Shown here piece by piece: positions 48,630 through 63,410 of a DNA stretch of 64,000 nt. The notes beneath the pieces were generated by a model. It ran no database searches. It saw nothing but the letters and a program-made list of their open reading frames with translations, and had not been told where the DNA came from. Where the stretch lies: the IMG/VR virus record IMGVR_UViG_3300042860_003432; one strand, given 5' to 3'. The stretch is from an uncultured virus (IMG/VR IMGVR_UViG_3300042860_003432). Lineage: Duplodnaviria; Heunggongvirae; Uroviricota; Caudoviricetes. How positions within the stretch are numbered: position 1 is the stretch's first letter; each line of letters opens with the position of its first letter. The position numbers and the translations under genes are program-made.

Positions 48630-48850
48630 ACTGGTTTTCTTTTTTATTGGCTTATTTTGAGTAATCTTGGTCGAAAATAATGACCAAGCCCAAAACTGCC
48701 CAACATACAACGGCTGCTACCATGATATGTTTCTCCTATCTTAGAGCCACAGACCCATAGGTTTGGTGGCTGTTATAACTGAGCATATAACTATATACCC
48801 GATATTATAATAAATCGCTAAAATAGCAAGTATATTTTACTTTTTATAAA

Positions 48851-50350
48851 CTAACCTATGACTGAAAGCTTGAGGTTTCGTATCAACACATCATTCTTGA
48901 AGTTTACAAGTTTGAGTTGAAGTTCGAACTTATCGCCGTTTGGTATAACTTCTTTCATCTTTCCAAGATGTCCAACAGTCATAGTAAATGAGTGTGTAAT
49001 GGTTTTGTTTGTTGTACTCGGATCTCCATCCATTATCTTTACTCGACCAATATACTTTCCATTTACATATGCTTTGATGGCACATTTTCCAACGTGAAAT
49101 ACTGGTCCTGTTTCTATTTCCAATAATGATGTTCCGCCGTCTATTGCCTTACTAATCAAATCTTTTAACGTATTTTGCGGGCGAACATACAAAGATAACC
49201 CTTCACGTACTGTAGCATATTGATTTATTGGAGCAGATACACTGGCGTAGTTTGTTGATACGCTTGTGGGAACAGTCAAATTATTATCGGATGGTACAGC
49301 ATATGATACTGTGTTCATCTTTGTCATAATATCTTTGATTGTTACAGTAACAGGAGAACCATCAATGTCTGGGAATGTATATACTTGTTGACCCCACGGA
49401 CCATCAAGATCTGGCATTGGATTTCTGTATAGTGAGAATATGCGATCTATATTTCCGTGATGCATAAAGAATATAGGATCATTTGCCGCATATCTTAGAG
49501 TTCCCATATTACGATTCTTACCATAACGAGTACCTACCCAATCGTGGCCATCATTGTGTGGTCCAGATTCCACCAACCCTTGGCCAGTTGCTCTATCTGT
49601 AACAGGCTTCCCGCCAAATTGTTCCCAAGGGGTTGTAAGAACAAGATTGATATATTCTGGACTCATATAGTTTTTGCACTCTTGAACGTGAGCTTTTGAA
49701 TCTTGTGAAACTTCGTTGTTTGGATCCATTTTGCTCTTTTGTATTGTTGGTCCACGATTTCCGTCAAACAATGCAATGTTGTCAAATCCAAGATTATCGG
49801 CGTTTACCATATTCTCTTGAGTAAGATCATATCCAAACAGCGGACTCGCCAAACCTCTTGCTTCACGTTCTTTTGTGTTTGGTATTTCTTGATGTGCACA
49901 CCAATCCCAGAATGGATATGCAAAGGGTACACCGTTGTATCCCAACTTATCCAAACAGTTTGCGAGTATTCTTTCTAAGAAGAAAATATAGCCACGATGC
50001 CAAGGTAGAAAATGCCAACCCCAATGTACTTGAGGGTTTGCTGCATCCGAAGCTGTGCAGTGTTTCATATGAATATTTGCATATGATTCCCATTGGGTAG
50101 GTGTTCCCATAGGAAGAGTATTTCGCATATAGTCAACTGCTTTACACAGCGTTCTTACTTCTTCGTCGGTAAGATCATAAAAGCTTTTGCGAACTCTGTT
50201 TGGTTCTTTTCCAAATACAAAAGGTTTTGCGTTTGGATCACACAGTTCAACGGGCTTATTTATTCCACCCGGTTGAGCCGAATTCAATGTAGCTACACTG
50301 GTCAACCCGATGGCACCAGTACCAATAAATTTTCTTCTTGATATTTTCAT
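48851..50350 (-). CDS. Tat-exported tyrosinase/polyphenol oxidase (type-3 copper)
   Basis: SRRKFI twin-Arg signal; CuA H...QVHWGWHFLPWHRGY; PFWDW; CuB PHNDGH...DPIFFMHHGNIDRI; C-terminal beta domain. Confidence 0.9.
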   Translation of the reverse strand: MKISRRKFIGTGAIGLTSVATLNSAQPGGINKPVELCDPNAKPFVFGKEPNRVRKSFYDLTDEEVRTLCKAVDYMRNTLPMGTPTQWESYANIHMKHCTASDAANPQVHWGWHFLPWHRGYIFFLERILANCLDKLGYNGVPFAYPFWDWCAHQEIPNTKEREARGLASPLFGYDLTQENMVNADNLGFDNIALFDGNRGPTIQKSKMDPNNEVSQDSKAHVQECKNYMSPEYINLVLTTPWEQFGGKPVTDRATGQGLVESGPHNDGHDWVGTRYGKNRNMGTLRYAANDPIFFMHHGNIDRIFSLYRNPMPDLDGPWGQQVYTFPDIDGSPVTVTIKDIMTKMNTVSYAVPSDNNLTVPTSVSTNYASVSAPINQYATVREGLSLYVRPQNTLKDLISKAIDGGTSLLEIETGPVFHVGKCAIKAYVNGKYIGRVKIMDGDPSTTNKTITHSFTMTVGHLGKMKEVIPNGDKFELQLKLVNFKNDVLIRNLKLSVIG

Positions 50351-50387
50351 AACCTATATAACTATAACTATAAAAAATAACAAAATA

Positions 50388-50996
50388 TCATCTAACTACT
50401 AAACTTGTAGTTTCACTTTTTACAAGTCCAGCAGTATTGCGTGCTTCTACTTTATAGTTTCCTGAATCAGCAGTTGTAATATTGGCTAGTTTTAGGCTTG
50501 CATTTGTTTTTCCCGCTAAAACTACATTATTTTTATACCAAGTAAATCTCAACGGTCCAGTTGCAGCAGCATCAACATTTGCTTTTATAGTAATATCATC
50601 GCCAACATATGCATCTGCTTGCAAACTATATAAATCACCTTCAAGCAACCAAAAGTTTCTGCTTATTCTGGTTAGTTTCCATTGCGAACCCATTTTTCGC
50701 GTTCTAAAAGCATCATCCGATTGTAGTATAATAACACCGTTTTCTCCAACAATATTTATTGTACCATCCGATAATGCTGTGCCATATATTTCTGTGCCTG
50801 TGCCAAATACATTAGTTCTTTCAAATGGCACAACAAATCTAACCGTTGAGTTATTTGGCGTCTGCATCGCAATCAAATAACCAGAATCTCTGTTTGTTAT
50901 TTTATATTCGGTGCTTGTGCTTATGGTTTTTACATCCAAAGCATATGATGTAAGAGCAACTGTCAAGAATGTCAGTAATAGAAATATCTTTTTCAT
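50388..50996 (-). CDS. secreted protein with C-terminal immunoglobulin domain
   Basis: Signal peptide; FTWYKN...L.L.NIT.ADSGNY.V.A.N..G. Confidence 0.8.
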   Translation of the reverse strand: MKKIFLLLTFLTVALTSYALDVKTISTSTEYKITNRDSGYLIAMQTPNNSTVRFVVPFERTNVFGTGTEIYGTALSDGTINIVGENGVIILQSDDAFRTRKMGSQWKLTRISRNFWLLEGDLYSLQADAYVGDDITIKANVDAAATGPLRFTWYKNNVVLAGKTNASLKLANITTADSGNYKVEARNTAGLVKSETTSLVVR

Positions 50997-51697: not shown

Positions 51698-51784
51698 TGG
51701 TGGGCATACTCGGACTTGAACCGAGACTCGCGTTACGCGAAACTCATTTTAAGTGAGTTGTGGCTACCATTACACCATATGCCC
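51698..51784 (-). tRNA. tRNA-Leu(UAA)
   Basis: Cloverleaf, anticodon arm ACTCA-CTTAAAA-TGAGT, long V arm, CCA. Confidence 0.92.
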
Positions 51785-51794
51785 GTATATTAAA

Positions 51795-52370
51795 TTAAAC
51801 TCTTCCCTTAGTAAAACCTTTTGGTATTGGGTCGCTTTTGGGAACTAACTTACTTATTTTTCCATCAGTAATCCAATGCTTTCCATAAGATGGATTATTT
51901 TTTCCATCCACTTTTCCTTTTCTCGACTCGCTAATTTTTTTCTTGGTTTCTTCTTTGTGCTTTCTTCCTTTCCAACCGTTACCACCGATACTCATTTTAT
52001 ATAAGTGAAGTCTTGCTCTGTTTTTTTCTGCAAACTCTTCTCTCCACACAGGATCATTTTCTCTTAACCATTTTATTTTTTTTCTCGCGAAATCTATATC
52101 TCCGACTCCCCCCAAACTAACATTATACGTATCGTCTCTTGCTATAAATTCTTGATCTACAATGTCCGCTTCTTTTTGCCACATTTCTTTTTCGGAAGAA
52201 CATTCTGTTATTATTTCTTTCTTAAAGAAATCTCTTCCATATTTTTTAATGGCACGCATAATTAGCACTCCGGAACCAAGATAAGAATCTTCTTTGTTTA
52301 GAGTTTTGTGTGCTCCTATATAAATTTTATTATTAATCGTGTTGGTAATTTTGTATATGATGTAATGCAT
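51795..52370 (-). CDS. GIY-YIG homing endonuclease (Seg-like, NUMOD3)
   Basis: IIYKITN..N.KIYIG, YLGSG, E..., YN, KGRKHKEETKKKISES; free-standing between tRNA genes. Confidence 0.9.
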   Translation of the reverse strand: MHYIIYKITNTINNKIYIGAHKTLNKEDSYLGSGVLIMRAIKKYGRDFFKKEIITECSSEKEMWQKEADIVDQEFIARDDTYNVSLGGVGDIDFARKKIKWLRENDPVWREEFAEKNRARLHLYKMSIGGNGWKGRKHKEETKKKISESRKGKVDGKNNPSYGKHWITDGKISKLVPKSDPIPKGFTKGRV

Positions 52371-52427
52371 ATACAAATAAATATAGTCCAAGTCGGAAAA
52401 AACAATGAACTCGGACTTATTATATGA

Positions 52428-52439
52428 TGTTAAAGAACA
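52428..52439 (-). promoter_or_regulatory. boxA-like antitermination motif
   Basis: TGTTCTTTAACA, one mismatch to E. coli rrn boxA TGCTCTTTAACA. Confidence 0.6.
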
Positions 52440-52446
52440 AAGTTAT

Positions 52447-52530
52447 TGGTAGCCAGAGCGGGGATCGAACCCGCAACCCTTTCGGGAGCAGTTTTTGAGA
52501 CTGCCGTGTATACCATTCCACCATCTGGCC
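52447..52530 (-). tRNA. tRNA-Leu(CAA)
   Basis: GCAGT-CTCAAAA-ACTGC anticodon arm, V arm, TTCGA, CCA. Confidence 0.92.
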
Positions 52531-52536
52531 AAAAAA

Positions 52537-52613
52537 TGGTAGTCGCGAAGGGACTCGAACCCCTGACCCTCTCGGTGTAAACGAGATGCTCTAACCAACT
52601 GAGCTACACGACC
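52537..52613 (-). tRNA. tRNA-Val(UAC)
   Basis: TCTCG-TTTACAC-CGAGA, canonical D and T arms, CCA. Confidence 0.95.
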
Positions 52614-52619
52614 ATAATT

Positions 52620-52708
52620 TGGTGGGCGAGACAGGACTCGAACCTGCACAGAATTTAATCTAATGGCTTCTAAGACCATCGCGTATTAGCCAATTCCGCC
52701 ACTCGCCC
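52620..52708 (-). tRNA. tRNA-Leu(UAG)
   Basis: ATGGT-CTTAGAA-GCCAT, V arm, TTCGA, CCA. Confidence 0.92.
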
Positions 52709-52710
52709 AA

Positions 52711-52754
52711 TTCAAAGAACACCTATACTCTACACACTTTATTTATTTCGTCAA
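52711..52754 (-). promoter_or_regulatory. sigma70-type promoter plus boxA-like motif for the tRNA operon
   Basis: TTGACG-N16-TAGAGT followed by TGTTCTTTGAA directly before tRNA-Leu(UAG). Confidence 0.65.
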
Positions 52755-53087
52755 GAACTTTCTGCGATAAACTGCATATCCCAATCCAATCATTCCTGCA
52801 AACAATGCATATGTAGACGGTTCAGGTACAGCAGGACCGCAATAATCTTTATCATAACCACCTCCACCGCCATAATATGGACGCTTGTATTTATCGTCAT
52901 CATCGTCATCATCTTCATCGTCATCATCCCAATCATAACTGCTGCTCATACTAATCATCTGCACAGGGTCTGTATATGACGGCTGAAATGTGCTCATAAT
53001 ATCATAATTACCAAAATCTACAACAGAGTCATTGGCAAAAATGCCGCTAACAAACATAGTAAAGATAAACAATAGTTTCTTATTCAT
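52743..53087 (-). CDS. PEP-CTERM sorting domain protein
   Basis: Signal peptide, poly-Asp tract, C-terminal VPEPSTYALFAGMIGLGYAVYRRK. Confidence 0.9.
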   Translation of the reverse strand: MNKKLLFIFTMFVSGIFANDSVVDFGNYDIMSTFQPSYTDPVQMISMSSSYDWDDDDEDDDDDDDKYKRPYYGGGGGYDKDYCGPAVPEPSTYALFAGMIGLGYAVYRRKFLTK

Positions 53088-53153
53088 ATGCTATAACTAT
53101 ACAGGTTTTTATGCTATACTCAAGCATAAAATCTATAATAAGTAATAATACGG

Positions 53154-53600
53154 TTATATCTTATAATCTTCGTGCTGTATGCTTTTTAGATTATTGTATA
53201 TGTAATGTACCCAATAATCAAGTTCGTGTGATTCATCTACTTTCAGATGATAATCAGTTGGTTGTGTAAATAACTTTGTTGTATCAGTAAAATCTCTAAC
53301 TGGTTTTCTTGCCATTAATATTACATAAGCATCTTTGGCGCCAAATGCCTCTCGTGCTGCTGCCGTAGGGCATACAAAATCTGCTATGGCATATACACCT
53401 GTTCTATTTACTATATCACATAATACTCCCATTCTTCTGGCGTGTTCTATTCTATCAGCTACATCAAACGTAAGGTCTTTATTTATTTTAGTTCTTATTT
53501 CGTCGGCGTTGAAATGAACAGCGTTCAATATTTTTGATAACGCAGTAGATAATGTTGTTTTACCCGAACCAGGCAAACCCATAACAAGTATCTTTTTCAT
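53154..53600 (-). CDS. adenylyl-sulfate kinase-like P-loop protein
   Basis: GLPGSGKTT, NADEIR, DR..HARR, DFVCPT...R. Confidence 0.75.
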   Translation of the reverse strand: MKKILVMGLPGSGKTTLSTALSKILNAVHFNADEIRTKINKDLTFDVADRIEHARRMGVLCDIVNRTGVYAIADFVCPTAAAREAFGAKDAYVILMARKPVRDFTDTTKLFTQPTDYHLKVDESHELDYWVHYIYNNLKSIQHEDYKI

Positions 53601-53656
53601 AACTACGGTTAGTGTTAATATTTATGTAAATTTTTACAGATTAAAAAACCAGTTCA

Positions 53657-54169
53657 TCAAACTTTACAATTTGTAAACAATTTTTTTTCTTTTACGTGCT
53701 CAACTGGGCATTCGTAAAAATATCTTATTCTGTTTTTAAATCTATCTCTTTTTGAAACTTTTTTCCAATATTCGGAAGAGCTTGTAGTTACTATAAGAGC
53801 CGTAGTCATAGTGTCATTTAATATAACATATGCATACGGTTTTGGATCAGCATTATCGAATGTATGACATACGTCAACTATGATTGTTTTATAAGGAAAA
53901 TCTTTTAGACCAGAAAATTTTAAAGATTTTCTATGTTTTACTTCTATTCTTTTACTTCCATTCAATTCATCAACAATTTCGAGATCTCCGTCGTCTGCAT
54001 ATTCTGCCATTTTCTCTACGCTTGGCCTTTCCTTGACTTCGAATATATTTACTTTTTTTCCTAATGAACGAAGCCAATCGGCGACGACTTCTACGGATTT
54101 TTTGCTTTCTCTCAAATCGGAGATAAAATTGGGATCTTCCTTTTCATACTTGGAAAAACTATATTTCAT
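53657..54169 (-). CDS. putative PD-(D/E)XK-fold protein
   Basis: DDGDL...RIEVKH; start moved to 54169 because the longer ORF overlaps a tRNA. Confidence 0.55.
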   Translation of the reverse strand: MKYSFSKYEKEDPNFISDLRESKKSVEVVADWLRSLGKKVNIFEVKERPSVEKMAEYADDGDLEIVDELNGSKRIEVKHRKSLKFSGLKDFPYKTIIVDVCHTFDNADPKPYAYVILNDTMTTALIVTTSSSEYWKKVSKRDRFKNRIRYFYECPVEHVKEKKLFTNCKV

Positions 54170-54173
54170 ATAA

Positions 54174-54248
54174 TGGTAGTGGGTGCGGCGTTTGAATCCG
54201 CTATCTTGGCTTATGAGACCAGCATTATACCACATTAATTAACCCACC
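54174..54248 (-). tRNA. tRNA with CAU anticodon (Met or Ile2), atypical and possibly degenerate
   Basis: Acceptor GGTGGGT/ACCCACT-A-CCA, loop CTCATAA; weak D arm and mismatched T stem. Confidence 0.7.
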
Positions 54249-54257
54249 CTAACAATT

Positions 54258-54351
54258 TGGTAGTCCCAGAGGGAATCGAACCCCCGCTCGGCACTAATCA
54301 GGTGCGCACAGTTTATAAGGCTGTCGGTGCTTCCAGTTACACTATGGGACC
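54258..54351 (-). tRNA. tRNA with UAU anticodon (nominally Ile) and long variable arm
   Basis: GGTCCCA/TGGGACT-A-CCA; ACAGC-CTTATAA-ACTGT; V-arm hairpin GCAC-CTGATTA-GTGC; TTCGA. Confidence 0.8.
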
Positions 54352-54401: not shown

Positions 54402-55394
54402 CTATTTTTCAATTAAGTTTTGTTTGAATATTTTCCAGCAATTTTCCCAAGTCCAATATGAACCATTCATCGCGACTATATCACGGTTTAGTTTTAGCGA
54501 TTTGTTGATACAATCTTCAAGATTATCTCCCATATATCCAGTCAACCCATCTTGAACAATATCTATTGGACCAGAAACGGGATATGCGGCTATTGGCGTG
54601 CCTAAACTCATTGCTTCTATCAAAACTATACCAAATGTGTCTGTTTTGCTGGGAAAACAAAATACATCTGCGTTTATATATTCATTTGCTAAATCTTTTC
54701 CGGTTTTGTATCCAAGGAACTTTACATTTTTATATTTTTTCTCTAAATGTTTTCTATATGGACCATCACCAACCAAGCGAACTTCATATTTGTCTTGTAG
54801 AACACACAAGTCATCCAGATTTTTTTCAAGGGATATTCTGCCAACATATAACACAACAGGAACTTCATTATTTTTTCTTTGAGTTGTTGGCGTCAGCAGA
54901 TTCTTATCAACTCCTCTTGTCCATATAACCATCTCAACGTCAAAATTGTTTTTACTCAGTTCATTCATCATTGACTTGGTAGTAACCAATACTCTACCAG
55001 AATGTTTATGAAACCATCTTACATAAGAATATGTGATACACTTTGGTATTTTATACATTTCATTCACATACTCTGGAAACTTTGTATGATATGAAGTGTT
55101 GTATTTGTATTTCTTACTATCACAATATAGTTTGGCAAAAAGTCCAAGCGGGCCTTCTGTAGAAATATGAATATAATCTGGATTGTATTCTTCTATCTTT
55201 TTTCCTAATCCAAATGGCAGGCTCATTTTTACTTCCGGATATCTTGGCATACTAAAATGCTTATACATTTCCGGTGAAATAAAGCATACCGTATGTCCAT
55301 CATTTTCCGCCTGTATCTTTATATTCTTGTATGTAGTTACAACGCCATTTATTTGCGTGAAAAGATTATCCGTTACTATTAGTATCTTTTTCAT
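54402..55394 (-). CDS. GT4 glycosyltransferase, Agt-like (diacylglycerol glycosyltransferase)
   Basis: ILIVTD...QINGVVTT, HISTEGPLG, TSYHTKFPEY, WTRGVD, YVGRIS.EKN, PSKTDTFG.V.IEA, AAYPVSGP. Confidence 0.8.
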   Translation of the reverse strand: MKKILIVTDNLFTQINGVVTTYKNIKIQAENDGHTVCFISPEMYKHFSMPRYPEVKMSLPFGLGKKIEEYNPDYIHISTEGPLGLFAKLYCDSKKYKYNTSYHTKFPEYVNEMYKIPKCITYSYVRWFHKHSGRVLVTTKSMMNELSKNNFDVEMVIWTRGVDKNLLTPTTQRKNNEVPVVLYVGRISLEKNLDDLCVLQDKYEVRLVGDGPYRKHLEKKYKNVKFLGYKTGKDLANEYINADVFCFPSKTDTFGIVLIEAMSLGTPIAAYPVSGPIDIVQDGLTGYMGDNLEDCINKSLKLNRDIVAMNGSYWTWENCWKIFKQNLIEK

Positions 55395-56133
55395 TGTAGT
55401 GTATCAACTCAAATGTTCCATTGTGATGCTCTACTATGGCGGTCAATGATTCTACCCAATCGCCGCAGTTCATATAATGAACATCATTTATATGTTTCAT
55501 TTCTGGATGATGTATATGACCGCATATTACGCCAACATATCCTTTTCTTTTACAATGATTAGATATATTAGTCTCAAACTTGAATATAAAATCAACGGCC
55601 TTTTTGACGCGATGCTTCAAAAACTTGCTGAAACTCCAATAACCAAATCCAAGTTTATGTCTTATCCAGTTATATTTTGTATTTAGGGCAAGAATAAAAT
55701 CATAACTTTTGTCTCCAAGAAAACTAAGCCACGGAGCCAATCTTGTTATACCATCAAATAAATCTCCGTGAACAACAAGATATTTTTCACCATATACACT
55801 AATATGTTCTATTTCATTACATAACTTGATGTTTCCTACTTCAAGTTCATATGGCAGCATCAATCTGAAAAACTCATCGTGATTGCCAATAACATATACT
55901 ATTTTGGTATCATTACGATGTAGTTTCAACAATCTTCTGATTACTTCAGAATGGCTGTTTTTCCATTTTGACCTGTTTTGTTGAAACTTCCAACCATCTA
56001 TGACATCACCGACGAGATAAAGAGTCTCGCAACTGTTACATTTTAGAAAATTTTCTACCTCTTTCGCCTTGCTATTTTTAGAACCGAGATGTAGGTCGGA
56101 TATAAAAATAGAGCGATATTTAGGTAGTTTCAT
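55366..56133 (-). CDS. PlcP-like metallophosphoesterase (LpxH/UDP-2,3-diacylglucosamine hydrolase superfamily)
   Basis: YRSIFISDLHLG, LYLVGDVIDGW, GNHDE, HGDLFD, YWSFS...K.RVK.AV, ICGHIH, NCGDWVES.TA.VE. Confidence 0.8.
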   Translation of the reverse strand: MKLPKYRSIFISDLHLGSKNSKAKEVENFLKCNSCETLYLVGDVIDGWKFQQNRSKWKNSHSEVIRRLLKLHRNDTKIVYVIGNHDEFFRLMLPYELEVGNIKLCNEIEHISVYGEKYLVVHGDLFDGITRLAPWLSFLGDKSYDFILALNTKYNWIRHKLGFGYWSFSKFLKHRVKKAVDFIFKFETNISNHCKRKGYVGVICGHIHHPEMKHINDVHYMNCGDWVESLTAIVEHHNGTFELIHYNEKDTNSNG

Positions 56134-56385
56134 TTAGTCCGCTTTATCTCCAAACATGAACTTGTTGGCAATAACATCTATGTTATGAAATGCTATGCTA
56201 ACCTTATCTATAATCCAAGGATCTAACTTTACAGTTTCACTTGCCATAATCTCTTTTATACGCTTACACTTTTCTTCTATGGCAGTTAGTTGATATTCAA
56301 TCATATCCTGCTGGCGTTCTGGATTTAATGTTACCATTTCATCCATTACTTCTTTGATAAGGTCTTTGAGTTCTGATTTTTTCAT
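56134..56385 (-). CDS. hypothetical protein
   Basis: Start MKKSELKDLIKE at 56385 after TATATTTATT. Confidence 0.6.
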   Translation of the reverse strand: MKKSELKDLIKEVMDEMVTLNPERQQDMIEYQLTAIEEKCKRIKEIMASETVKLDPWIIDKVSIAFHNIDVIANKFMFGDKAD

Positions 56386-56411
56386 ATAATAATAAATATA
56401 TACACATAAAC

Positions 56412-56438
56412 AAAAACCCAGCATTTACGCTGGGTTTT
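56412..56438 (-). terminator. intrinsic terminator
   Basis: aaaaacccagc-attta-cgctgggtttt downstream of the FHA-like gene. Confidence 0.7.
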
Positions 56439-56463
56439 CGTGAGTTGATATATATTAACTATA

Positions 56464-58428
56464 TCAAGGCTTTGGAGGCAGGAATGTGCCTGTACCAGCA
56501 TTGACTGGATATACTCCACTCAAGTTGGTAGCAAAACTCAATGCACTCAAATCTGTTACTCCCTTGGCATTGAACGTAAGTGCCGAGGTCTTTAGCAGAT
56601 TGGATAGTGTAATATTTCCGCCAGCAGTTAGTGTTAGAGCACCAACCAACGAGTTTGTAGAAGCGGCAGAAGTATTGAAAATATCTCCACCACTTACAAC
56701 GCTGGTAGTTCCACCGTTCAATGAACCAATGTTTGTACTATTGAGTTCATTTAGGTTGATTGCTCCAGTGCCAGCAGCGACTGACACCAATCCAAAGTTG
56801 TTGTTTGGTTGAGTCAGGCTAACTTCAGCATTATTGGTATTGACGACCAAGTTTCCACGAACATCCATAGAAGTTGTAGGAACTTGAGTAACTGCTGCTC
56901 CAGCAATACCTGTGGTAGAAACGGTAAGGTTTCCGCCAACATTAGTCGTACCAAGCGAAGTAGCACGAGCCTGTGTCAGTACCGCATCAGTTGTAGCAGT
57001 TAGTGTAACATTTCCGAGGTTGTTTAGACCGGCGGGATCGTTAAGATTTACATTTGTCGCAGTAAGATTGCTTGCGCCAGCAGTAACGCGGCTAGTAGCG
57101 AGCAATTGCACAATGTCATTCTTACTTGTGGCAACCAGATTGCCAGTTACAGCAACACGGTTTAGGTTGAGTGTAGCGTCCTCAACGATAGTAGCATTAC
57201 CACGAACATCAAGGCTTACTGGACCAAAACTATGCTTTGCACGAGCAATATTGACATCACCAGTTGTAACAAATGATGTCGGACCGTACACGAACTGCTT
57301 TTCTGCTGTATCAACTACAGTAGGAGCGGTAAATGTAGTATTACCAGAACTTCCCAAGGCAACGCCAGTCAAGGCGATGCGGGACAGTGCCGTTACAGTT
57401 GTATCACCAGTTCCGCTGTTAGTAACATTGGCAAGAGTAACCGCACCACCACCAAGAGTGATGTTGCCAGCCGCCATTACATTATAGTTTGTAGAAGCGG
57501 CGGTACTTGCAGCAACAATGTTATTGCCACTAACCGTAACATTTGTGCTGGTCAAGCGTGGAAGCGAAACATCCTTACCAGAGACAGTCAGGTTTGTTAC
57601 GTTGAGCGTACCAGTACCTTGTGTGACAGCACCAGCGGTCAAAGCGCCAGTAGCATTGATGGTGATATTTCCAGTAGAAGTAATAAAGCCGTTAGGAGCA
57701 ATGATTACATTTCCGCCGGAAGTATTGATGTCGGTCTTGCCATTTAGCACAGCAGGAGCAGCAAAACTGGAACCCAGAACGGCATTACCGCCGTATGTAT
57801 TGACTACAAGATTTCCAGTAACAATGGCACCTCCAATGTTTGTGTTACGAGAAGCAATGGTAATGTTCTCCGAAACTGCCTGCAACACCGCGCCATCAGT
57901 AACGGTTACTCCATTTGTGAGAACGCTCGTGGGCAGGTTGTCTTGGCTGGGCAACTTTGCGTTGGTATTCCAGTATCCAAGAGAAACAGTAGGATCGTCA
58001 ACGGTGCTGACGTATAATCCAGCAACATTGATGGTGCTAGTACCACCGATAAGTACGCCGTTTGGATTTAGAATGAACACTCGTCCATTCGACTCGATGG
58101 CACCGTTGATGGTGCTGGCTGCTCCACCGGAGACGATATTCAGCACAGACGAGTTGGTTGCAGGCAATGTGTATTCAATGCGCTGACCGGCGTCAATCGT
58201 GTTCGTTCCACTGCCAAAAGCCTGCCAGTTAAGCACAGCCTTGTTTGGTGCAGAAATGCTCAGTGTGTTTGCAGTTCCATTTACTAAAACACCCGCTGTC
58301 GTTTGTAGATTGGTGGCGTCGATGCTCGGAAGAGCAAAGACATGCGCCACGGCGAATACAAACACCATCAACGAAGACAATGTCTTCGTCCACAGCGAGT
58401 TATTATGTGTATTTTTATTGTATTTCAT
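56464..58428 (-). CDS. filamentous-haemagglutinin-like beta-helical exoprotein (TPS N-terminal domain)
   Basis: Signal peptide; AVLNWQAF, SVLNIVSGG..S.ING.IESNGRVFILNPNGVLIG; T/N/G/V-rich repeats. Confidence 0.85.
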   Translation of the reverse strand: MKYNKNTHNNSLWTKTLSSLMVFVFAVAHVFALPSIDATNLQTTAGVLVNGTANTLSISAPNKAVLNWQAFGSGTNTIDAGQRIEYTLPATNSSVLNIVSGGAASTINGAIESNGRVFILNPNGVLIGGTSTINVAGLYVSTVDDPTVSLGYWNTNAKLPSQDNLPTSVLTNGVTVTDGAVLQAVSENITIASRNTNIGGAIVTGNLVVNTYGGNAVLGSSFAAPAVLNGKTDINTSGGNVIIAPNGFITSTGNITINATGALTAGAVTQGTGTLNVTNLTVSGKDVSLPRLTSTNVTVSGNNIVAASTAASTNYNVMAAGNITLGGGAVTLANVTNSGTGDTTVTALSRIALTGVALGSSGNTTFTAPTVVDTAEKQFVYGPTSFVTTGDVNIARAKHSFGPVSLDVRGNATIVEDATLNLNRVAVTGNLVATSKNDIVQLLATSRVTAGASNLTATNVNLNDPAGLNNLGNVTLTATTDAVLTQARATSLGTTNVGGNLTVSTTGIAGAAVTQVPTTSMDVRGNLVVNTNNAEVSLTQPNNNFGLVSVAAGTGAINLNELNSTNIGSLNGGTTSVVSGGDIFNTSAASTNSLVGALTLTAGGNITLSNLLKTSALTFNAKGVTDLSALSFATNLSGVYPVNAGTGTFLPPKP

Positions 58429-60012: not shown

Positions 60013-60102
60013 TGGCGGAAGAGGTGAGATTCGAACTCACGGTGACATTACTGCCACGACGGTTTTCAAGACCGTTGCCTTAAACCACTCAGCCACTCTT
60101 CC
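60013..60102 (-). tRNA. tRNA-Ser(UGA)
   Basis: ACGGT-CTTGAAA-ACCGT, long V arm, G73, CCA. Confidence 0.95.
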
Positions 60103-60113
60103 ATAAAATATTT

Positions 60114-60205
60114 TGGCGGTGAGTATAGGATTTGAACCTATGGTAGAATTTTACTCCTACAACGCTTTAGCAAAGCGCCGCTATAGACCACTCAGCCAAC
60201 TCACC
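60114..60205 (-). tRNA. tRNA-Ser(GCU)
   Basis: GCGCT-TTGCTAA-AGCGT, long V arm, G73, CCA. Confidence 0.95.
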
Positions 60206-60267
60206 ATATAACAAAAGAACCCTACGATATAAGTAGGGTTCTGTCAAGATTATAAATTTATTATATC

Positions 60268-60654
60268 TTATTTAGAAATGCTTACTTCTGGAGCATCTAA
60301 TGGTGTAGGTGCGGTTGTATAGCCAGGCTTTTTTGTTTCTCTTGCTCTACAACAATCGGCACATTTACAGGTAGTTGAACTGCCGCCGCCAACAAAAAAT
60401 CCATATTCATGTTTTTCTGTGTTGGCAAATATACCAAACTCTTTTCTGCCACCAAGCAACAACAATCCGCATAGCAAAATAACAAGCAGTAGTATTACCA
60501 CAGGAGTAATCTTTGTTTTGCATTTGCCTGTGCAGCAATCTGGTTCGGATACAAACAATGATACAATAAATGCCCATATTGCCAAAATAGCATTACGAAC
60601 TGCACGAACAACACTACCAATCAATCCTAGTATATAGTTTATTATAGTTTTCAT
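60268..60654 (-). CDS. membrane protein with Cys clusters
   Basis: Two hydrophobic segments; DCCTGKC and TCKCADCC. Confidence 0.6.
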   Translation of the reverse strand: MKTIINYILGLIGSVVRAVRNAILAIWAFIVSLFVSEPDCCTGKCKTKITPVVILLLVILLCGLLLLGGRKEFGIFANTEKHEYGFFVGGGSSTTCKCADCCRARETKKPGYTTAPTPLDAPEVSISK

Positions 60655-60696
60655 ATGTGTAAAAAGTTATATAATATATAAATATGGATATAAAAA

Positions 60697-60864
60697 CTAT
60701 TTATCTAGCCTTGTGTATCTAGAATATACAGACTCTAGTACAGAGTTCTGTTTCAAGAACTTATCTGCCATCTTGGAAATTTTTTTATGACATACTCCGT
60801 CATAAAATGCGTCAGATATTTCTTTCGCAGTTATTGGCTTTATAGACTTTTTCTTTTTTGGCAT
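60697..60864 (-). CDS. small basic hypothetical protein (55 aa, not in ORF track)
   Basis: MPKKKKSIKPITAKEISDAFYDG... Confidence 0.4.
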   Translation of the reverse strand: MPKKKKSIKPITAKEISDAFYDGVCHKKISKMADKFLKQNSVLESVYSRYTRLDK

Positions 60865-60915
60865 ATGTTTATTTGTATATATTACATATTGCAGATATTA
60901 TGCCAATTATAAAAA

Positions 60916-60993
60916 TGGTACAGGTGGTGAGATTTGAACTCACAATCTTTCCGCCCCAAACGGAACGCGATAACCAGATTACGCTACACCTGT
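60916..60993 (-). tRNA. tRNA-Pro(UGG)
   Basis: TTCCG-TTTGGGG-CGGAA; acceptor ACAGGTG/CACCTGT-A-CCA. Confidence 0.9.
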
Positions 60994-61047
60994 ATAAGTG
61001 GTGTAATCAAATACACTAGTTATATCTATTACACCACGATATAACTA

Positions 61048-61278
61048 TTACTTACTCTCTACAAATCGATAGAGTTTTTCAGCAATTTGCATTGCTTCCT
61101 CTACGCGATTGTCTGGTGCAATCGGTAATGCTCCCTTGTTGGTTTTTTCAGCCTCGTATCGCAGCGCTTCTTGAGAGAAGTGATAACGACCATCAGCCAT
61201 TTCAAGTGCCTTGTTAAGCACTTCCCAACGGATTTCATAACCGCTTTTACCTGTCTTTTGTGTATTCGACTTATTCAT
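61048..61278 (-). CDS. hypothetical phage protein
   Basis: SGYEIR.EVL..A ... AEKLY.FV. Confidence 0.65.
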   Translation of the reverse strand: MNKSNTQKTGKSGYEIRWEVLNKALEMADGRYHFSQEALRYEAEKTNKGALPIAPDNRVEEAMQIAEKLYRFVESK

Positions 61279-61360
61279 TGTGTGTGTATGAAATGATTTG
61301 CGTTATTGCATCTCATTTCACCGCACATATTGAAGTAAAAATCTATTTTGTCAAGTATAT

Positions 61361-61670
61361 AAAAAAGACTTGTCGTTAGTATCGTATGCGACGCCACGAA
61401 GGGACTGCCCTAGTTATGTGTGAAAATATTGGGAGGAATAATGATTACCTCCATTCCAACTCCGATATTTCAGTTATTCAGTCAGATGATACCGTCGCAT
61501 CATAATGGTTCGCAATGTCATATGTTATTCTACATACAAACCATACCTCTGGTAGCTTCGGTTGGCCAACCTAGGCTTCAGCATAGTACCTTACTTACTA
61601 CTCGGAGCAGAAACTTACCTATACTCTTCGTATAGATAATGCGTTAGTCCCATTTGATAAGACTTTTTCC
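61361..61670 (-). ncRNA. candidate large structured ncRNA (~310 nt), family unknown
   Basis: Nested long-range stems, at least five hairpins and a loop-loop complement; directly follows tRNA-Ala. Confidence 0.6.
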
Positions 61671-61680
61671 GCCACAAAAA

Positions 61681-61756
61681 TGGTGGACCCAACAGGGTTC
61701 GAACCTGCGACCTTCTGCTTGCAAAGCAGCTTCTCTACCAACTGAGATATGAGCCC
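61681..61756 (-). tRNA. tRNA-Ala(UGC)
   Basis: G3:U70, CTGCT-TTGCAA-GCAG anticodon arm, TTCGA, CCA. Confidence 0.95.
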
Positions 61757-61760
61757 ATTA

Positions 61761-61806
61761 TTTGAAAGAACGAGAATAACTATGTACTAGTTTAATAGAA
61801 AGTCAA
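61761..61806 (-). promoter_or_regulatory. sigma70-type promoter plus boxA-like motif
   Basis: TTGACT-N16-CATAGT followed by GTTCTTTCAAA before tRNA-Ala. Confidence 0.6.
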
Positions 61807-61839
61807 CAACATTCTATCATTTTATATATATTTATAATT

Positions 61840-62271
61840 GTGAAACTATATCTACTAGCTAAAAAAATATTAGAAAATGATTATAAAGGAACGCATAAAG
61901 CTCCAAGTAAATCAAACGGCTCTCCTTTACACGACCTTACGCAGATATATCCAGATGACATATACTCAAATAAAGCAGTAGCATATTATGGCGATAGAGC
62001 AACAGATTATAGTGACCAGTTGTCTATTAGCATAATGCATAATACCAAAGATAAACCAGACGCTAAAGTAAAGATATATCGTGCAGTTCCTTCAAATATA
62101 CAAGGAGATATAAATGCGAGTGATTGGGTGACTATCAATAAGCAATATGCAGTTACTCACGGCGAAAGAACACTTGGTGGAGATTATAAAATAATAACCA
62201 AAGTTGTGCCAGCAAAGCATCTATATACAGACGCTAATAGTATTCACGAGTTTGGATATGACCCAAGTTAA
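61840..62271 (+). CDS. hypothetical phage protein
   Basis: GTG start after ATATTTATA; HKAP...PLHDL...YPDDIY, IYRAVP, DWVT...YA..HG, HEFGYDP. Confidence 0.7.
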   Translation: MKLYLLAKKILENDYKGTHKAPSKSNGSPLHDLTQIYPDDIYSNKAVAYYGDRATDYSDQLSISIMHNTKDKPDAKVKIYRAVPSNIQGDINASDWVTINKQYAVTHGERTLGGDYKIITKVVPAKHLYTDANSIHEFGYDPS

Positions 62272-62272
62272 A

Positions 62273-62347
62273 TGGTGGTAGAGGTGGATCCTGACACCAC
62301 AACCTGTCCGTTATCAACAGACTGCTCTTCCTTTGAGCTACTCTACC
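62273..62347 (-). tRNA. tRNA-Ile(GAU), non-canonical T loop
   Basis: GTCTG-TTGATAA-CGGAC; T arm GTGGTGTCAGGATCCAC lacks TTC; CCA. Confidence 0.8.
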
Positions 62348-62380
62348 ATAAAAACTATTTATAATTCATATATATGAAAT

Positions 62381-63139
62381 ATGAATAAAGAAAATGTTAT
62401 AGTACACACGGTGTGGGTTGGTGACAGTTTAAGCTTAATGGAACAACTCACAATAAAATTATTGCAGCTACACGGTCACGAAGTACATCTTTGGTGTTAT
62501 GACAAAATAAAAAATGTACCAGACAAAACAATCTTACGAGACGCGGCGGATATAATGCCCAAAAGTTCAATTTTCTCATTTCAAGGAGAATATTTACCAT
62601 ATATTCCAAACGGGGGTATAGGTTCATTAAGTCATTGGTCTGATCAGTTTCAATGTAAGCTTCTTGCTATGGAAGGTGGAATATATTCCCAATTGGATGT
62701 AGCTTATTTGGCACCAATTAATTATAACCCAGAATATCTATTTGTTGATATTTTGGATGCAAGAAAAACATTAAGCACTTTCTTGATGAAATGTCCAAAA
62801 GGTTCTTCATTTGCGATTGAAGCATACAAAGAATTATCCATGAAAATAAATTATTTAACAATGCCATATCTACATTGGGATTGTTCTATGAATTTGTGTA
62901 TGGACATACTGGTAAACAGAACAAATATAACCACAAAGAAATGTCGAGAATGTTTTTTGCATCAAAAACATTATTTGGACCTTGGATGTAAAAAAACTGG
63001 CCCATTTTTTGGACCTTTCGAATTTCCGAAGGATTTATTGGCAATACACTGGTCGAATGCGACATTGAATGTATATAAAAATCATCCTATACCAAATTCA
63101 TTTTACGAATCACTATTGAGATTCGTTGGACTAGTTTAG
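62381..63139 (+). CDS. glycosyltransferase (GT32/capsular polysaccharide synthesis-like)
   Basis: VWVG..LS.ME.L, GHEVHLWCY, DA..I.P, SD.F..KLL...GG.Y..LD. Confidence 0.75.
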   Translation: MNKENVIVHTVWVGDSLSLMEQLTIKLLQLHGHEVHLWCYDKIKNVPDKTILRDAADIMPKSSIFSFQGEYLPYIPNGGIGSLSHWSDQFQCKLLAMEGGIYSQLDVAYLAPINYNPEYLFVDILDARKTLSTFLMKCPKGSSFAIEAYKELSMKINYLTMPYLHWDCSMNLCMDILVNRTNITTKKCRECFLHQKHYLDLGCKKTGPFFGPFEFPKDLLAIHWSNATLNVYKNHPIPNSFYESLLRFVGLV

Positions 63140-63313: not shown

Positions 63314-63327
63314 ATGAATATATATAG

Positions 63328-63401
63328 TGGCTGTTCCTCATGGATTCGAACCATGACAAAGCGAGTCAAAGTCGCTTGTGCTACCATTACACCAAGGAAC
63401 A
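63328..63401 (-). tRNA. tRNA-Gln(UUG)
   Basis: U1:A72, AGCGA-CTTTGAC-TCGCT, G73, CCA. Confidence 0.93.
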
Positions 63402-63410
63402 ATAATAAAC

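What the first reader, a model, noticed from the sequence alone, without database searches (positions are those of the whole stretch)
54402..56133. Phage-borne PlcP-Agt-like membrane-lipid remodelling cassette
Seen: two overlapping, co-oriented genes, a metallophosphoesterase with the full PlcP-type motif set (SDLHLG, GDVIDGW, GNHDE, HGDLFD, YWS, GHIH, NCGDWVES) followed by a GT4 with the Agt-type signature (ILIVTD..Q.NGVV, TEGPLG, TSYHTKFPEY, WTRGVD). Established: in phosphate-starved heterotrophic bacteria, PlcP removes phospholipid head groups to give diacylglycerol and the adjacent Agt glycosylates it into phosphorus-free glycolipid. Inference: a large-genome phage could mine host membrane phosphorus for dNTP synthesis while keeping the membrane intact. 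I cannot tell whether this has been reported in viruses.
Basis: partly seen in the sequence, partly recalled or inferred. Interest (0 to 1): 0.88.

Follow-up and report, generated by a model that had tools for sequence, protein, structure and literature searches.

The report
Phage-borne PlcP-Agt lipid-swap gene pair
A large uncultured lake phage carries its own copies of the two bacterial enzymes that replace phosphate-containing membrane lipids with sugar lipids, so it probably frees phosphorus from its host's membrane during infection.

Summary
Two overlapping minus-strand genes (55366-56133 and 54402-55394) encode a PlcP-type metallophosphoesterase and an Agt/GTcp-type GT4 glycosyltransferase. 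They lie inside T4-like jumbo-phage DNA.

- **Not LpxH.** The phosphoesterase scores 55.9 bits against a cut-off of 134, the same as bacterial paralogues that coexist with a true LpxH. It carries five PlcP-specific residues.
- **Agt-type.** The glycosyltransferase keeps every catalytic, UDP-sugar and diacylglycerol residue mapped by mutagenesis in the SAR11 enzyme.
- **Conserved layout.** The plcP-then-agt order matches 45 of 80 bacterial loci. Among 80 IMG/VR phage loci, 28 have agt and 45 have a GT2/GT21-like transferase directly after plcP.
- **One viral clade each.** Viral PlcP and viral Agt each form a single clade (support 99).
- **Phosphate neighbours.** A sister strain carries PstS and a phosphate porin about 6 kb away.

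Enzyme activity, expression and the phosphorus-mining purpose are inferred, not shown. I found no Pho box here. No paper I could search describes this in a virus; viromics papers list the gene as the lipopolysaccharide gene lpxH. This scan has noted the same cassette before on other DNA (139 notes, at least 124 genomes).

The parts
56410..56441 (-). Terminator-like hairpin directly after the upstream TPS-domain gene; it marks the probable 5' boundary of the transcription unit
   Evidence: 14-pair stem, 6 G-C pairs, followed by a T run. The sequence was read. This is a consensus match only; termination is not shown.
56134..56385 (-). Small gene (83 aa, MKKSELKDL...) of unknown function. Its stop codon abuts the plcP start (TAA then ATG).
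   Evidence: The ATG at 56424 that the ORF listing reports lies inside the hairpin, so I prefer the ATG at 56385. One search finds the gene in the same upstream position in 8 of 80 IMG/VR loci (L003-L010, 48-100% identity) and in none of the others. Pfam and NCBIfam find no family above threshold.
55366..56133 (-). plcP-like gene: a PlcP-type (LpxH-like but not LpxH) metallophosphoesterase, predicted phospholipase C that yields diacylglycerol
   Evidence: See Membership tests for the individual features.
54402..55394 (-). agt-like gene: a GT4 glycosyltransferase of the Agt/GTcp clade, predicted UDP-sugar:diacylglycerol glycosyltransferase. Its start overlaps the end of plcP by 29 nt.
54258..54351 (-). 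tRNA-Ile (anticodon tat) 50 nt downstream of agt; it marks the 3' boundary of the unit and is not part of the pathway

Best explanation
A T4-like jumbo phage of lake water (estimated genome roughly 230-330 kb) carries a captured bacterial 'type 2' plcP-agt lipid-renovation operon as a three-gene unit: orf83, plcP, agt.

The proposed mechanism has five steps.
1. Shown from sequence: the first enzyme is a PlcP-type Mn/metal phosphoesterase with an LpxH-like lipid-binding lid.
2. Inferred: in the infected cell it cuts the phospho-head group off PE/PG-type phospholipids, leaving diacylglycerol in the membrane.
3. Shown from sequence: the second enzyme is an Agt/GTcp-type retaining GT4.
4. Inferred: it transfers glucose and/or glucuronic acid from a UDP-sugar onto that diacylglycerol, giving phosphorus-free glycolipid that keeps the bilayer intact.
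5. Inferred: the released phospho-alcohols are dephosphorylated by host enzymes, and the phosphate supports synthesis of the large phage genome in phosphate-poor water.

The 29-nt overlap suggests translational coupling, so that diacylglycerol is not made without its consumer.
For: **Identity of PlcP**
- LpxH models score 55.9 against 134 and 42.9 against 190.35 bits.
- In 5 of 5 bacterial genomes searched, a true LpxH scores 218-335 bits. In 4 of those 5, a second PlcP-like paralogue scores 49-55 bits, the same as the window protein.
- phmmer of the window protein gives 256-274 bits to those paralogues. It gives 24-35 bits to 3 LpxH proteins and no hit to the other 2.
- LpxH separates at support 100 in a 144-row FastTree and a 68-row IQ-TREE mixture tree.
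- At five positions the state is H85, D46, N222, S167, D127 in 57 of 57 viral and 80 of 80 bacterial PlcP-like rows. In 5 of 5 LpxH rows it is R, E, V, K/A, gap. All seven metal ligands are kept.
- The AF2 model (pLDDT 80.4) has LpxH structures as its first 24 listed PDB matches, over the full length.

**Identity of Agt**
- The motifs are GRISLEKN and FPSKTDTFG. The window has H103/D252 (the His104-Asp256 dyad), T159, R160 and W316 (the diacylglycerol residues), and G17, G81, G84, R186, K191, T253, F254, G255, E260.
- These match every residue shown essential in PMC8231724 (passages read). I verified the numbering on four Pelagibacteraceae loci.

**Linkage of the two genes**
- agt lies directly after plcP in 45 of 80 bacterial loci, including Pelagibacteraceae, Roseibium/Labrenzia, Caulobacter and Pseudomonas, and in 28 of 80 phage loci.
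- A different GT2/GT21-like transferase takes the same place in 45 of 80 phage loci, so 73 of 80 have a glycosyltransferase there.
- All 4 representatives of 564-663 aa (among the 8 longer ones I scanned, out of 150 listed) are GT4-metallophosphoesterase fusions.

**Viral setting**
- The window holds 13 tRNAs and a tmRNA.
- It also holds a clamp loader, T4-type RNA ligase, dNMP kinase, Hoc-like proteins and homing endonucleases.
- Relatives G002 (369,145 bp, terminal repeats) and G003 (359,563 bp) are rated 100% complete and encode Gp23 capsid protein.
- Contigs from lake runs of three different years bridge the cassette and its flanks.

**Phosphate theme**
- Sister strain G004 (PlcP 99% identical) has a PstS-like gene (130 bits) and a phosphate-selective porin O/P gene (36 bits) where the window has a tyrosinase gene.
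- Phage Mosig has pstS next to its plcP-like gene.
- L076 has PstS directly after the transferase, and L060 has PhoH nearby.
- Viral PlcP (57 rows) and viral Agt (22 rows) each form one clade at support 99.
Against: - No activity, lipid or expression data exist. No RNA run holds the stretch, which says nothing either way.
- There is no Pho box near the unit. The consensus CTGTCATNNNNCTGTCAT gave 6 matches in the window against 7.3 expected, none near the cassette. A cyanobacterial-type pattern gave 9 against 21 expected. Phosphate-responsive control is therefore unsupported here.
- No phosphatase that would release phosphate from the phospho-alcohols lies beside the genes.
- The window itself lacks pstS and phoH; only its sister strain and relatives have them.
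- The host is unknown. The best matches of two phage genes to cultured phages are at most 28% identical, so I cannot say whether the host has PE/PG or its own plcP.
- The amount of phosphorus gained is modest by my estimate, about 0.4-2 genome equivalents. I used phospholipid P counts of two marine bacteria from PMC4796936 and 2 P per base pair.
- I could not align the window proteins with the experimentally characterised proteins themselves. I used only homologues from the same genera or families.
- D252 is Glu in 6 of 22 viral Agt rows, and the paper reports that D256E loses more than 90% of activity.
Confidence: 0.7

Rival explanations
1. The biochemistry is the same (phospholipid to diacylglycerol to glycolipid), but the benefit is not phosphorus. 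The phage may remodel the envelope to block superinfection, to change receptor display or membrane-protein function, to resist membrane-active stress, or to stabilise the membrane through a long infection.
For: There is no Pho box in the window, and the window has no pstS or phoH. My estimate of the phosphorus yield is modest (figures). Published work links lipid renovation to changed membrane proteomes, phage receptors and polymyxin sensitivity (PMC9804370 passages). It also links it to grazing susceptibility (PMC9457565, abstract and passages).
Against: Phosphate-acquisition genes recur beside or near the cassette. Sister strain G004 has PstS plus a phosphate porin, Mosig has pstS, and L076 has PstS. 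In bacteria the operon is a phosphate-starvation response (PMC4796936 section 13; PMC8528852 passages).
Confidence: 0.2
2. The database annotation is right. The first gene is LpxH (UDP-2,3-diacylglucosamine hydrolase) and the pair modifies lipid A or LPS, as viromics papers assume when they list viral lpxH under lipopolysaccharide biosynthesis.
For: JGI names on homologues read 'UDP-2,3-diacylglucosamine pyrophosphatase LpxH'. The GenBank annotations of Mosig and S-SRM01 say the same. The predicted fold is LpxH-like. lpxH is listed as an LPS AMG in PMC10653327 and PMC9611531 (passages).
Against: The protein falls below both curated LpxH cut-offs. Its bacterial relatives are second paralogues beside a real LpxH. 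LpxH forms a separate clade on a long branch at support 100. The motif is GNHD rather than GNRD, and four further positions differ. The window has no other lipid A genes. The partner GT4 carries diacylglycerol-site residues rather than an LPS-core signature.
Confidence: 0.03
3. The two enzymes act on non-lipid substrates. For example, they could be a nucleotide or nucleic-acid phosphoesterase and a transferase that glycosylates phage DNA, protein or a polysaccharide, as part of the window's large glycosylation machinery.
For: The window has a 17.6-35.9 kb cluster of glycosyltransferases and sugar-nucleotide enzymes. PHROGs gives only weak hits: 'DNA repair exonuclease' at 41 bits and 'glycosyltransferase' at 38 bits.
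Against: The pair lies about 18 kb from that cluster. It is orthologous as a unit to the bacterial plcP-agt operon. The helical lid and the diacylglycerol residues are conserved.
Confidence: 0.05
4. The stretch is cellular DNA, from a mis-binned bacterial contig or an assembly chimera, and is not phage-borne.
For: Both genes are of bacterial origin. IMG/VR contains some misclassified contigs. All DNA runs that hold the stretch may be its own source.
Against: Phage genes and tRNA arrays lie on both sides within the window. Four IMG/VR contigs hold the same arrangement. Single contigs from runs of 2020, 2023 and 2024 span the cassette and its flanks. Related cassettes sit in complete genomes of 359-369 kb that encode Gp23 capsid protein. 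The best bacterial match in the scan I ran is only 52% identical, against 60-73% among phage contigs.
Confidence: 0.02

Closest known systems
Bacterial plcP-agt lipid-renovation operon, the 'type 2' layout of Sebastian et al. 2016 (PMC4796936). Examples are Pelagibacter HTCC7211 PB7211_983/PB7211_960 and P. aeruginosa PA3219/PA3218 (PMC8528852).
   Same: The two protein families, the gene order and the tight spacing are the same (45 of 80 bacterial loci). All residues shown to be essential in the SAR11 Agt are present. Identity to bacterial members is 43-52% for PlcP and 33-47% for Agt. That is about the distance between the characterised PlcPs themselves (46-47%).
   Different: Here the operon is encoded by a phage. 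The viral copies form their own clades. No Pho box was detected. The genes overlap by 29 nt and are preceded by a small phage-specific gene.
LpxH (UDP-2,3-diacylglucosamine pyrophosphohydrolase of lipid A synthesis)
   Same: The calcineurin-like core with an inserted helical lipid-binding lid is shared. LpxH structures are the best PDB matches to the model, and the metal ligands are shared.
   Different: Identity is 16-23% in the structural alignments. The protein falls below the family cut-offs, lies in a separate clade and has GNHD instead of GNRD. Its bacterial relatives coexist with a real LpxH.
plcP followed by other glycosyltransferases, 'types 3 and 5' of Sebastian et al. 2016. One of these is the processive GT21 enzyme of Devers et al. 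2011, as cited in section 13.
   Same: In 45 of 80 phage loci, plcP is followed by a 236-240 aa GT2 with a weaker GT21 match. The logic is the same with a different transferase.
   Different: The window itself has the GT4 Agt type. The viral GT2 gave no match in the 80 bacterial loci at E<=1e-8.
Mosig_00120 of Pelagibacter phage Mosig EXVC030M and QPX48289.1 of Synechococcus phage S-SRM01, both annotated as LpxH-type enzymes
   Same: These are PlcP-like genes in cultured T4-like phages, 45.6% and 35.0% identical to the window protein. In Mosig the gene lies next to pstS.
   Different: Neither has a glycosyltransferase directly downstream (within 400 nt) of the plcP-like gene, nor an Agt-like GT4 within 4 kb. 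Both lie outside the IMG/VR viral clade, although Mosig is its sister at support 90, which is unstarred.
Phage phosphate-stress auxiliary genes (pstS, phoH, phosphate porins)
   Same: The ecological logic is the same, and these genes co-occur with the cassette in relatives and in the sister strain.
   Different: Those genes import phosphate or are of unknown role. This pair would instead recycle phosphorus already inside the cell. That cyanophage pstS and phoA respond to host PhoB is recalled from memory and was not checked here.

Membership tests
PlcP (metallophosphoesterase-type phospholipase C of lipid renovation) | Calcineurin-like metallophosphoesterase with a complete metal-ligand set | tested here: met
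   Pfam Metallophos scores 46.4 bits. D13, H15, D43, N84, H122, H206 and H208 are present and invariant in 57 viral, 80 bacterial and 2 isolate rows.
PlcP (metallophosphoesterase-type phospholipase C of lipid renovation) | LpxH-like architecture (core plus helical lid) without being the LpxH orthologue | tested here: met
   The model has helices at residues 125-196 inserted in the core, and LpxH structures are its top PDB matches. The score is 55.9 against a cut-off of 134. Bacterial relatives score 49-55 bits beside a true LpxH at 218-335 bits.
PlcP (metallophosphoesterase-type phospholipase C of lipid renovation) | Falls in the clade of bacterial genes that sit upstream of agt or other non-phosphorus-lipid genes | tested here: met
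   The trees show this. The clade includes Pelagibacteraceae, Pseudomonas, Roseibium/Labrenzia and Caulobacter loci with agt downstream.
PlcP (metallophosphoesterase-type phospholipase C of lipid renovation) | Direct similarity to the experimentally characterised proteins (SMc00171, MED193_17359, PB7211_983, PA3219) | not tested
   No tool gave me those sequences. I used homologues from the same families and genera as proxies.
PlcP (metallophosphoesterase-type phospholipase C of lipid renovation) | Phospholipase C activity that releases diacylglycerol from PE, PG or PC | not testable with these tools
   This needs an enzyme assay or lipidomics.
Bacterial plcP-agt operon as a Pho-regulon member | Pho box in the promoter | tested here: not met
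   The consensus from PMC8528852 gave 6 matches in the window against 7.3 expected, none near 56134-56470. A cyanobacterial-type pattern recalled from memory gave 9 against 21 expected. The host's own box is unknown, so this is a weak negative.
Agt/GTcp clade of GT4 (diacylglycerol glucosyl/glucuronosyl-transferases) | GT-B fold, GT4 family | tested here: met
   Pfam gives PF13439 and PF00534. The AF2 model (pLDDT 90.7) matches BshA, MshA, PimB' and PimA.
Agt/GTcp clade of GT4 (diacylglycerol glucosyl/glucuronosyl-transferases) | UDP-sugar motifs GRVAxEKN and FPSxTDTFG (PMC8231724) | tested here: met
   The window has GRISLEKN and FPSKTDTFG.
Agt/GTcp clade of GT4 (diacylglycerol glucosyl/glucuronosyl-transferases) | Catalytic dyad His104-Asp256, with Asp in place of the usual GT4 Glu | tested here: met
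   The window has H103 and D252. The numbering was verified on four Pelagibacteraceae loci.
Agt/GTcp clade of GT4 (diacylglycerol glucosyl/glucuronosyl-transferases) | Diacylglycerol-site residues Thr162, Arg163 and Trp320 | tested here: met
   The window has T159, R160 and W316. R and W are kept in 22 of 22 viral rows, and T in 21 of 22.
Agt/GTcp clade of GT4 (diacylglycerol glucosyl/glucuronosyl-transferases) | Transfers Glc, GlcA or Gal from a UDP-sugar to diacylglycerol; donor specificity | not testable with these tools
   Characterised members differ in donor use, so sequence does not settle the donor.
LpxH | Reaches the curated score of the equivalog models | tested here: not met
   NF003743 scores 55.9 against 134, and TIGR01854 scores 42.9 against 190.35.
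LpxH | LpxH-specific residues, as seen in 5 true LpxH proteins fetched here (GNRD Arg and others) | tested here: not met
   The window has H85, D46, N222, S167 and D127. The 5 LpxH rows have R, E, V, K/A and a gap at those positions.
Viral auxiliary metabolic gene | Host-type metabolic gene inside a viral genome, flanked by viral genes on both sides | tested here: met
Viral auxiliary metabolic gene | Expressed during infection and alters host metabolism | not testable with these tools
   No RNA holder was listed.

The most novel reading that the evidence does not exclude
Membrane phosphorus mining would be a widespread, anciently acquired strategy of freshwater and marine T4-like phages. A single viral plcP lineage has radiated through hundreds of phage genomes, always coupled to a diacylglycerol-consuming glycosyltransferase (GT4 Agt or a GT2/GT21-like enzyme). 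It would impose a phosphorus-sparing lipidome even on hosts that lack the pathway. If so, part of the environmental 'plcP' signal and all of the viral 'lpxH' signal in metagenomes would really be this viral function.
Probability: 0.45. Interest if true: 0.85.

Novelty: new variant of a known kind. Interest (0 to 1): 0.72.

Why it matters
Phosphorus limits both bacterial growth and phage production in many lakes and ocean regions. The known phage answers are genes for phosphate uptake. A phage-encoded lipid swap would add a second route: recycling the phosphorus locked in the host's own membrane while keeping the cell intact long enough to finish a large genome.

It would also correct a systematic mis-annotation. 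Viral copies are labelled LpxH and counted as lipopolysaccharide genes. It would further mean that surveys using plcP abundance as a marker of bacterial phosphorus stress may include viral copies.

The idea is directly testable. Phage Mosig, which carries a plcP-like gene beside pstS, is in culture on Pelagibacter HTCC1062.

Tried and rejected
- **Pho boxes.** Two consensus patterns gave no more matches than shuffled sequence, and none near the cassette.
- **Expression.** No RNA holder was listed. The one run labelled RNA? (X20, wastewater, probably DNA) covered only tRNA-like pieces and two short diverged pieces outside plcP and agt. This says nothing about expression.
- **Host.** tblastn of the window's helicase and RNA ligase against 50,697 phage records gave at most 25.5% identity at 60% or more coverage (33.3% over a short piece) and 27.6% respectively, to phages of unrelated hosts. 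The host stays unknown.
- **Whole genome.** None is held for this window.
- **Broad alignment A1.** It was too diverse for a pattern scan, so I used the narrower A2. The 52% maximum identity to bacteria is therefore the best of what was scored, not a proven ceiling.
- **PHROGs.** It has no specific family for either protein, only weak generic hits.
- **Scan notes by place.** Nothing was recorded for this genome.
- **Literature search.** It was set too loosely (any 2 of 6 terms) and is uninformative.
- **UDP-glucose dehydrogenase-like ORF (31460-32203).** I considered it as a UDP-glucuronate supplier. It lies 22 kb away in the glycan cluster and looks truncated (150 bits against a cut-off of 189.8), so I do not count it as part of the unit.
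- **Complex prediction.** I did not run one, because I make no claim that the two proteins bind.
Full report
**1. The observation**

One search lists two co-oriented minus-strand ORFs at the stated coordinates. One is 55366-56133 (255 aa) and the other is 54402-55394 (330 aa). They overlap by 29 nt.

Pfam calls the first a calcineurin-like metallophosphoesterase (46.4 bits). It calls the second a GT4 glycosyltransferase (Glyco_transf_4 at 47.7 bits, Glycos_transf_1 at 87.3 bits). Both proteins have thousands of homologues.

**2. The DNA is phage DNA**

- The 64-kb window holds 13 tRNA genes and a tmRNA gene.
- It encodes a phage clamp-loader subunit, a T4-type RNA ligase, a dNMP kinase, dUTPase, Hoc-like Ig proteins, and HNH and GIY-YIG homing endonucleases. 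These lie on both sides of the pair.
- Four IMG/VR contigs carry the same arrangement at 99-100% protein identity.
- The nearest records are fragments rated 18% and 32% complete (60,065 and 73,233 bp). That implies a genome of roughly 230-330 kb.
- Two relatives with a plcP homologue are rated complete: G002 (369,145 bp, with terminal repeats) and G003 (359,563 bp). Both encode a T4-type Gp23 capsid protein.
- Neighbours of the homologue in other loci include RegA, gp45, gp44, T4 RNase H and ribonucleotide reductase.
- Nineteen lake-water DNA runs hold the stretch. Single contigs from runs of 2020, 2023 and 2024 span the cassette and its flanks. These runs may be the source of the window, so this shows contiguity and persistence rather than independent confirmation.

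**3. The phosphoesterase is PlcP-type, not LpxH**

- The two curated LpxH models score 55.9 and 42.9 bits, against cut-offs of 134 and 190.35.
- I searched five bacterial genomes that hold a homologue. All five have a true LpxH at 218-335 bits. Four of the five show a second hit at 49-55 bits, which is the homologue of the window protein.
- phmmer of the window protein gives 256-274 bits to those paralogues. It gives 24-35 bits to three of the LpxH proteins and nothing to the other two.
- I built a FastTree of 144 distinct rows: 57 IMG/VR, 80 bacterial, 2 phage isolates and 5 LpxH. Identical rows and duplicate loci L083-L085 and L171-L174 were dropped. LpxH separates at support 100, and all 57 IMG/VR rows form one clade at support 99, nested among the bacterial PlcP-like proteins.
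- An IQ-TREE mixture-model tree of 68 rows that I picked as a spread of the first tree gives the same result: 23 viral rows in one clade at 99, LpxH at 100. The sister of the viral clade is phage Mosig plus one MAG contig, at support 90, which is unstarred.
- Five alignment positions separate the two groups without exception. They read H85, D46, N222, S167 and D127 in 57 of 57 viral and 80 of 80 bacterial rows. They read R, E, V, K/A and a gap in 5 of 5 LpxH rows. The seven metal ligands are shared by all.
- The AF2 model (pLDDT 80.4) has a helical insertion at residues 125-196. Its first 24 listed PDB matches are all LpxH structures at 16-23% identity. So the lipid-binding architecture is kept. 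I saw no PlcP structure among the matches.

**4. The glycosyltransferase is Agt/GTcp-type**

Wei et al. 2021 (PMC8231724; abstract and passages read) define the clade by four kinds of feature:
- the motifs GRVAxEKN and FPSxTDTFG;
- a His104-Asp256 dyad, in which Asp cannot be replaced by Glu;
- donor-site residues Gly16, Gly82, Gly85, Arg190, Lys195, Thr257, Phe258, Gly259 and Glu264;
- diacylglycerol-site residues Thr162, Arg163 and Trp320.

Four Pelagibacteraceae homologues fetched here carry these residues at exactly those numbers, which fixes the alignment. The window protein has the equivalent of every one: G17, G81, G84, H103, T159, R160, R186, K191, D252, T253, F254, G255, E260 and W316.

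The AF2 model (pLDDT 90.7) is a GT-B GT4 fold nearest to BshA, MshA and PimB'. In a tree of 71 rows, the 22 distinct viral Agt proteins form one clade at support 99 against 46 bacterial ones.

**5. The two genes are a unit**

I scanned bacterial genomes with an alignment of the window protein and its relatives. The scan was truncated at 601 candidate stretches, and the best 80 loci were kept. Identity to the window protein in those loci is 43-52%.

In 45 of the 80 loci, an Agt homologue (33-47% identical) lies directly downstream on the same strand. The taxa include Pelagibacteraceae, Roseibium/Labrenzia, Caulobacter, Mesorhizobium and several Pseudomonas. This is the 'type 2' layout of Sebastian et al. 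2016. In that study the SAR11 plcP complemented a plcP mutant, and the SAR11 agt sufficed for MGDG and GADG synthesis in E. coli (PMC4796936, section 13 and passages).

Among the 80 best IMG/VR loci (135 of 141 candidate stretches were confirmed):
- 28 have Agt directly downstream;
- 45 have instead a 236-240 aa GT2 with a weaker GT21 match;
- 6 have neither;
- 1 ends too soon to tell.

So 73 of 80 phage loci place a glycosyltransferase immediately after plcP. This replacement by a non-orthologous enzyme parallels the bacterial 'types 3 and 5'. It argues that selection acts on consuming the diacylglycerol.

Among the 150 listed cluster representatives, I scanned the 8 longer ones. All four of 564-663 aa are GT4-metallophosphoesterase fusions, and the four of 379-413 aa showed only the phosphoesterase domain. 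The GT4 part of the one fusion I compared belongs to a different subclade (29% identity, FPSETETFG).

In the window, a terminator-like hairpin follows the upstream gene. An 83-aa gene then abuts plcP, agt overlaps plcP, and a tRNA-Ile follows. The small gene is conserved in that position only in the window's nearest relatives, 8 of 80 loci.

**6. The phosphate theme**

The window itself has no pstS or phoH, and I found no Pho box. The lineage does carry such genes:
- In sister record G004 (PlcP 99% identical, flanks 93% identical in DNA), the slot where the window has a tyrosinase gene (48851-50350) holds two other genes. One is PstS-like (PBP_like_2, 130 bits) and one is a phosphate-selective porin O/P (36 bits). 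They lie about 6 kb from plcP.
- Phage Mosig has pstS divergently beside its plcP-like gene.
- L076 has PstS directly after the transferase, L060 has PhoH nearby, and L082 has a porin directly upstream.
- A PstS like that of L076 occurs in 4 of the 80 loci within the flanks held.
- G002 and G003 both encode PhoH.

**7. Mechanism and its weak points**

What is shown is family membership, intact active sites, gene linkage and the viral setting. What is inferred is the chemistry and the benefit:
- hydrolysis of host phospholipid to diacylglycerol;
- glycosylation of that diacylglycerol to glycolipid;
- release of phosphate from the phospho-alcohols by host phosphatases;
- use of that phosphate for the phage genome.

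I made a rough phosphorus budget. The two marine bacteria measured by Sebastian et al. lost 0.27 and 0.91 million phospholipid P atoms per cell under starvation. A genome of 230-330 kb needs 0.46-0.67 million P atoms. The gain is therefore about 0.4 to 2 genome copies, which is real but modest. For that reason I keep a rival at 0.2: the same chemistry serving envelope remodelling for another end.

The sugar donor cannot be read from the sequence, because characterised members differ in donor use.

**8. Comparison with the literature**

I searched the library for several term sets:
- PlcP with phage (25 papers, none on a phage gene);
- PlcP, Agt and lipid remodelling;
- lipid-remodelling and AMG terms;
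- PlcP with viral and phosphorus (12 papers, none relevant; passages of two were checked).

None of these papers describes a virus-encoded PlcP or Agt. Sebastian et al. 2016 contains no occurrence of phage, virus or viral. The pelagimyophage survey and the Mosig genome announcement do not mention the gene's function. Eight papers hold both lpxH and 'auxiliary metabolic'. The two I read list viral lpxH under lipopolysaccharide biosynthesis. Subscription-only papers and supplements I did not open could still hold a report.

**9. Earlier notes of this scan**

A word search returned 139 notes in at least 124 other genomes with the same reading; eight were shown. They agree with mine. Their leads on PstS plus a phosphate porin and on Pho boxes were tested here. 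The first holds for the sister strain. The second does not hold for this window.

**10. Verdict**

It is a new, viral variant of a known bacterial pathway. It is widespread among uncultured T4-like phages and is systematically mislabelled in databases.

Noticed in passing
window 48825-50390, compared with L175 2679-4840 (record G004): Strain-level gene swap. The window has a 499-aa tyrosinase-domain gene (48851-50350). The sister strain, with 93% identical flanks, has a PstS-like gene and a phosphate-selective porin O/P gene in the same slot.
   Followed up: yes
L015:6746-7459, L023:6910-7629, L035:6910-7629, L038:6904-7626, L060:6758-7471, L068:6737-7447, L076:6904-7626: In 45 of 80 phage loci, plcP is followed not by Agt but by a 236-240 aa GT2 with a weaker GT21 match. 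Its best NCBIfam hit is sub-threshold, to an arsenosugar-type glycosyltransferase. No counterpart was found in the 80 bacterial loci. It may be a second, virus-typical diacylglycerol glycosyltransferase.
   Followed up: partly
proteins P0246, P0262, P0283, P0332: Metagenomic proteins of 564-663 aa fuse an N-terminal GT4 to a C-terminal PlcP-like domain. The GT4 of P0262 is only 29% identical to the window's Agt and has FPSETETFG.
   Followed up: partly
window 56464-58428 (-): A 654-aa protein with a two-partner-secretion (TPS) domain and DUF5649 repeats lies just upstream of the cassette. It is only 78% identical between strains whose PlcP and Agt are 99-100% identical, so it is a fast-evolving gene, perhaps an adhesin or fibre.
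   Followed up: no
window 52743-53087 (-): A 114-aa protein has a signal-like N-terminus, an Asp-rich tract and a PEP-CTERM sorting motif (22.1 bits). That is unusual for a phage and may hint at a Gram-negative host with an exosortase. The Asp-codon repeat attracts very high contig depth from unrelated DNA.
   Followed up: no
window 44266-44646 (tmRNA); 51698-54351 and 60013-63735 (tRNAs); L011:3027-4834: The phage encodes a tmRNA and 13 tRNAs. Complete relative G002 encodes SmpB and a release-factor-like protein a few kb from its plcP. This suggests phage-borne translation-rescue machinery.
   Followed up: no
window 17618-35883 (-): An 18-kb glycan-synthesis cluster. It holds three GT2 and three GT1/GT4-type transferases, a DegT aminotransferase, an epimerase/dehydratase, an SDR, FkbM and other methyltransferases, a HAD-nucleotidyltransferase fusion and a UDP-glucose-dehydrogenase-like gene. 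The dehydrogenase-like ORF (31460-32203) overlaps the next ORF (30748-31593) and looks truncated or frameshifted.
   Followed up: no
window 40933-42048 and 44974-46462: RNA-repair-type genes: a T4 Rnl1-like RNA ligase, a cyclic-phosphate-processing receiver domain (cREC_REC), a phosphoesterase (phrog_547) and a Macro-domain phosphatase.
   Followed up: no
L101 (contig of a MAG labelled Hyphomonas sp.): Its PlcP-like protein groups with phage Mosig as sister of the viral clade. The 19-kb contig may be a phage contig binned into a MAG.
   Followed up: no
L038:5200-5949 and L082:4193-5910: Other membrane genes lie directly upstream of viral plcP: a fatty-acid desaturase in L038, and a Gram-negative porin plus an OmpA-family protein in L082.
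   Followed up: no
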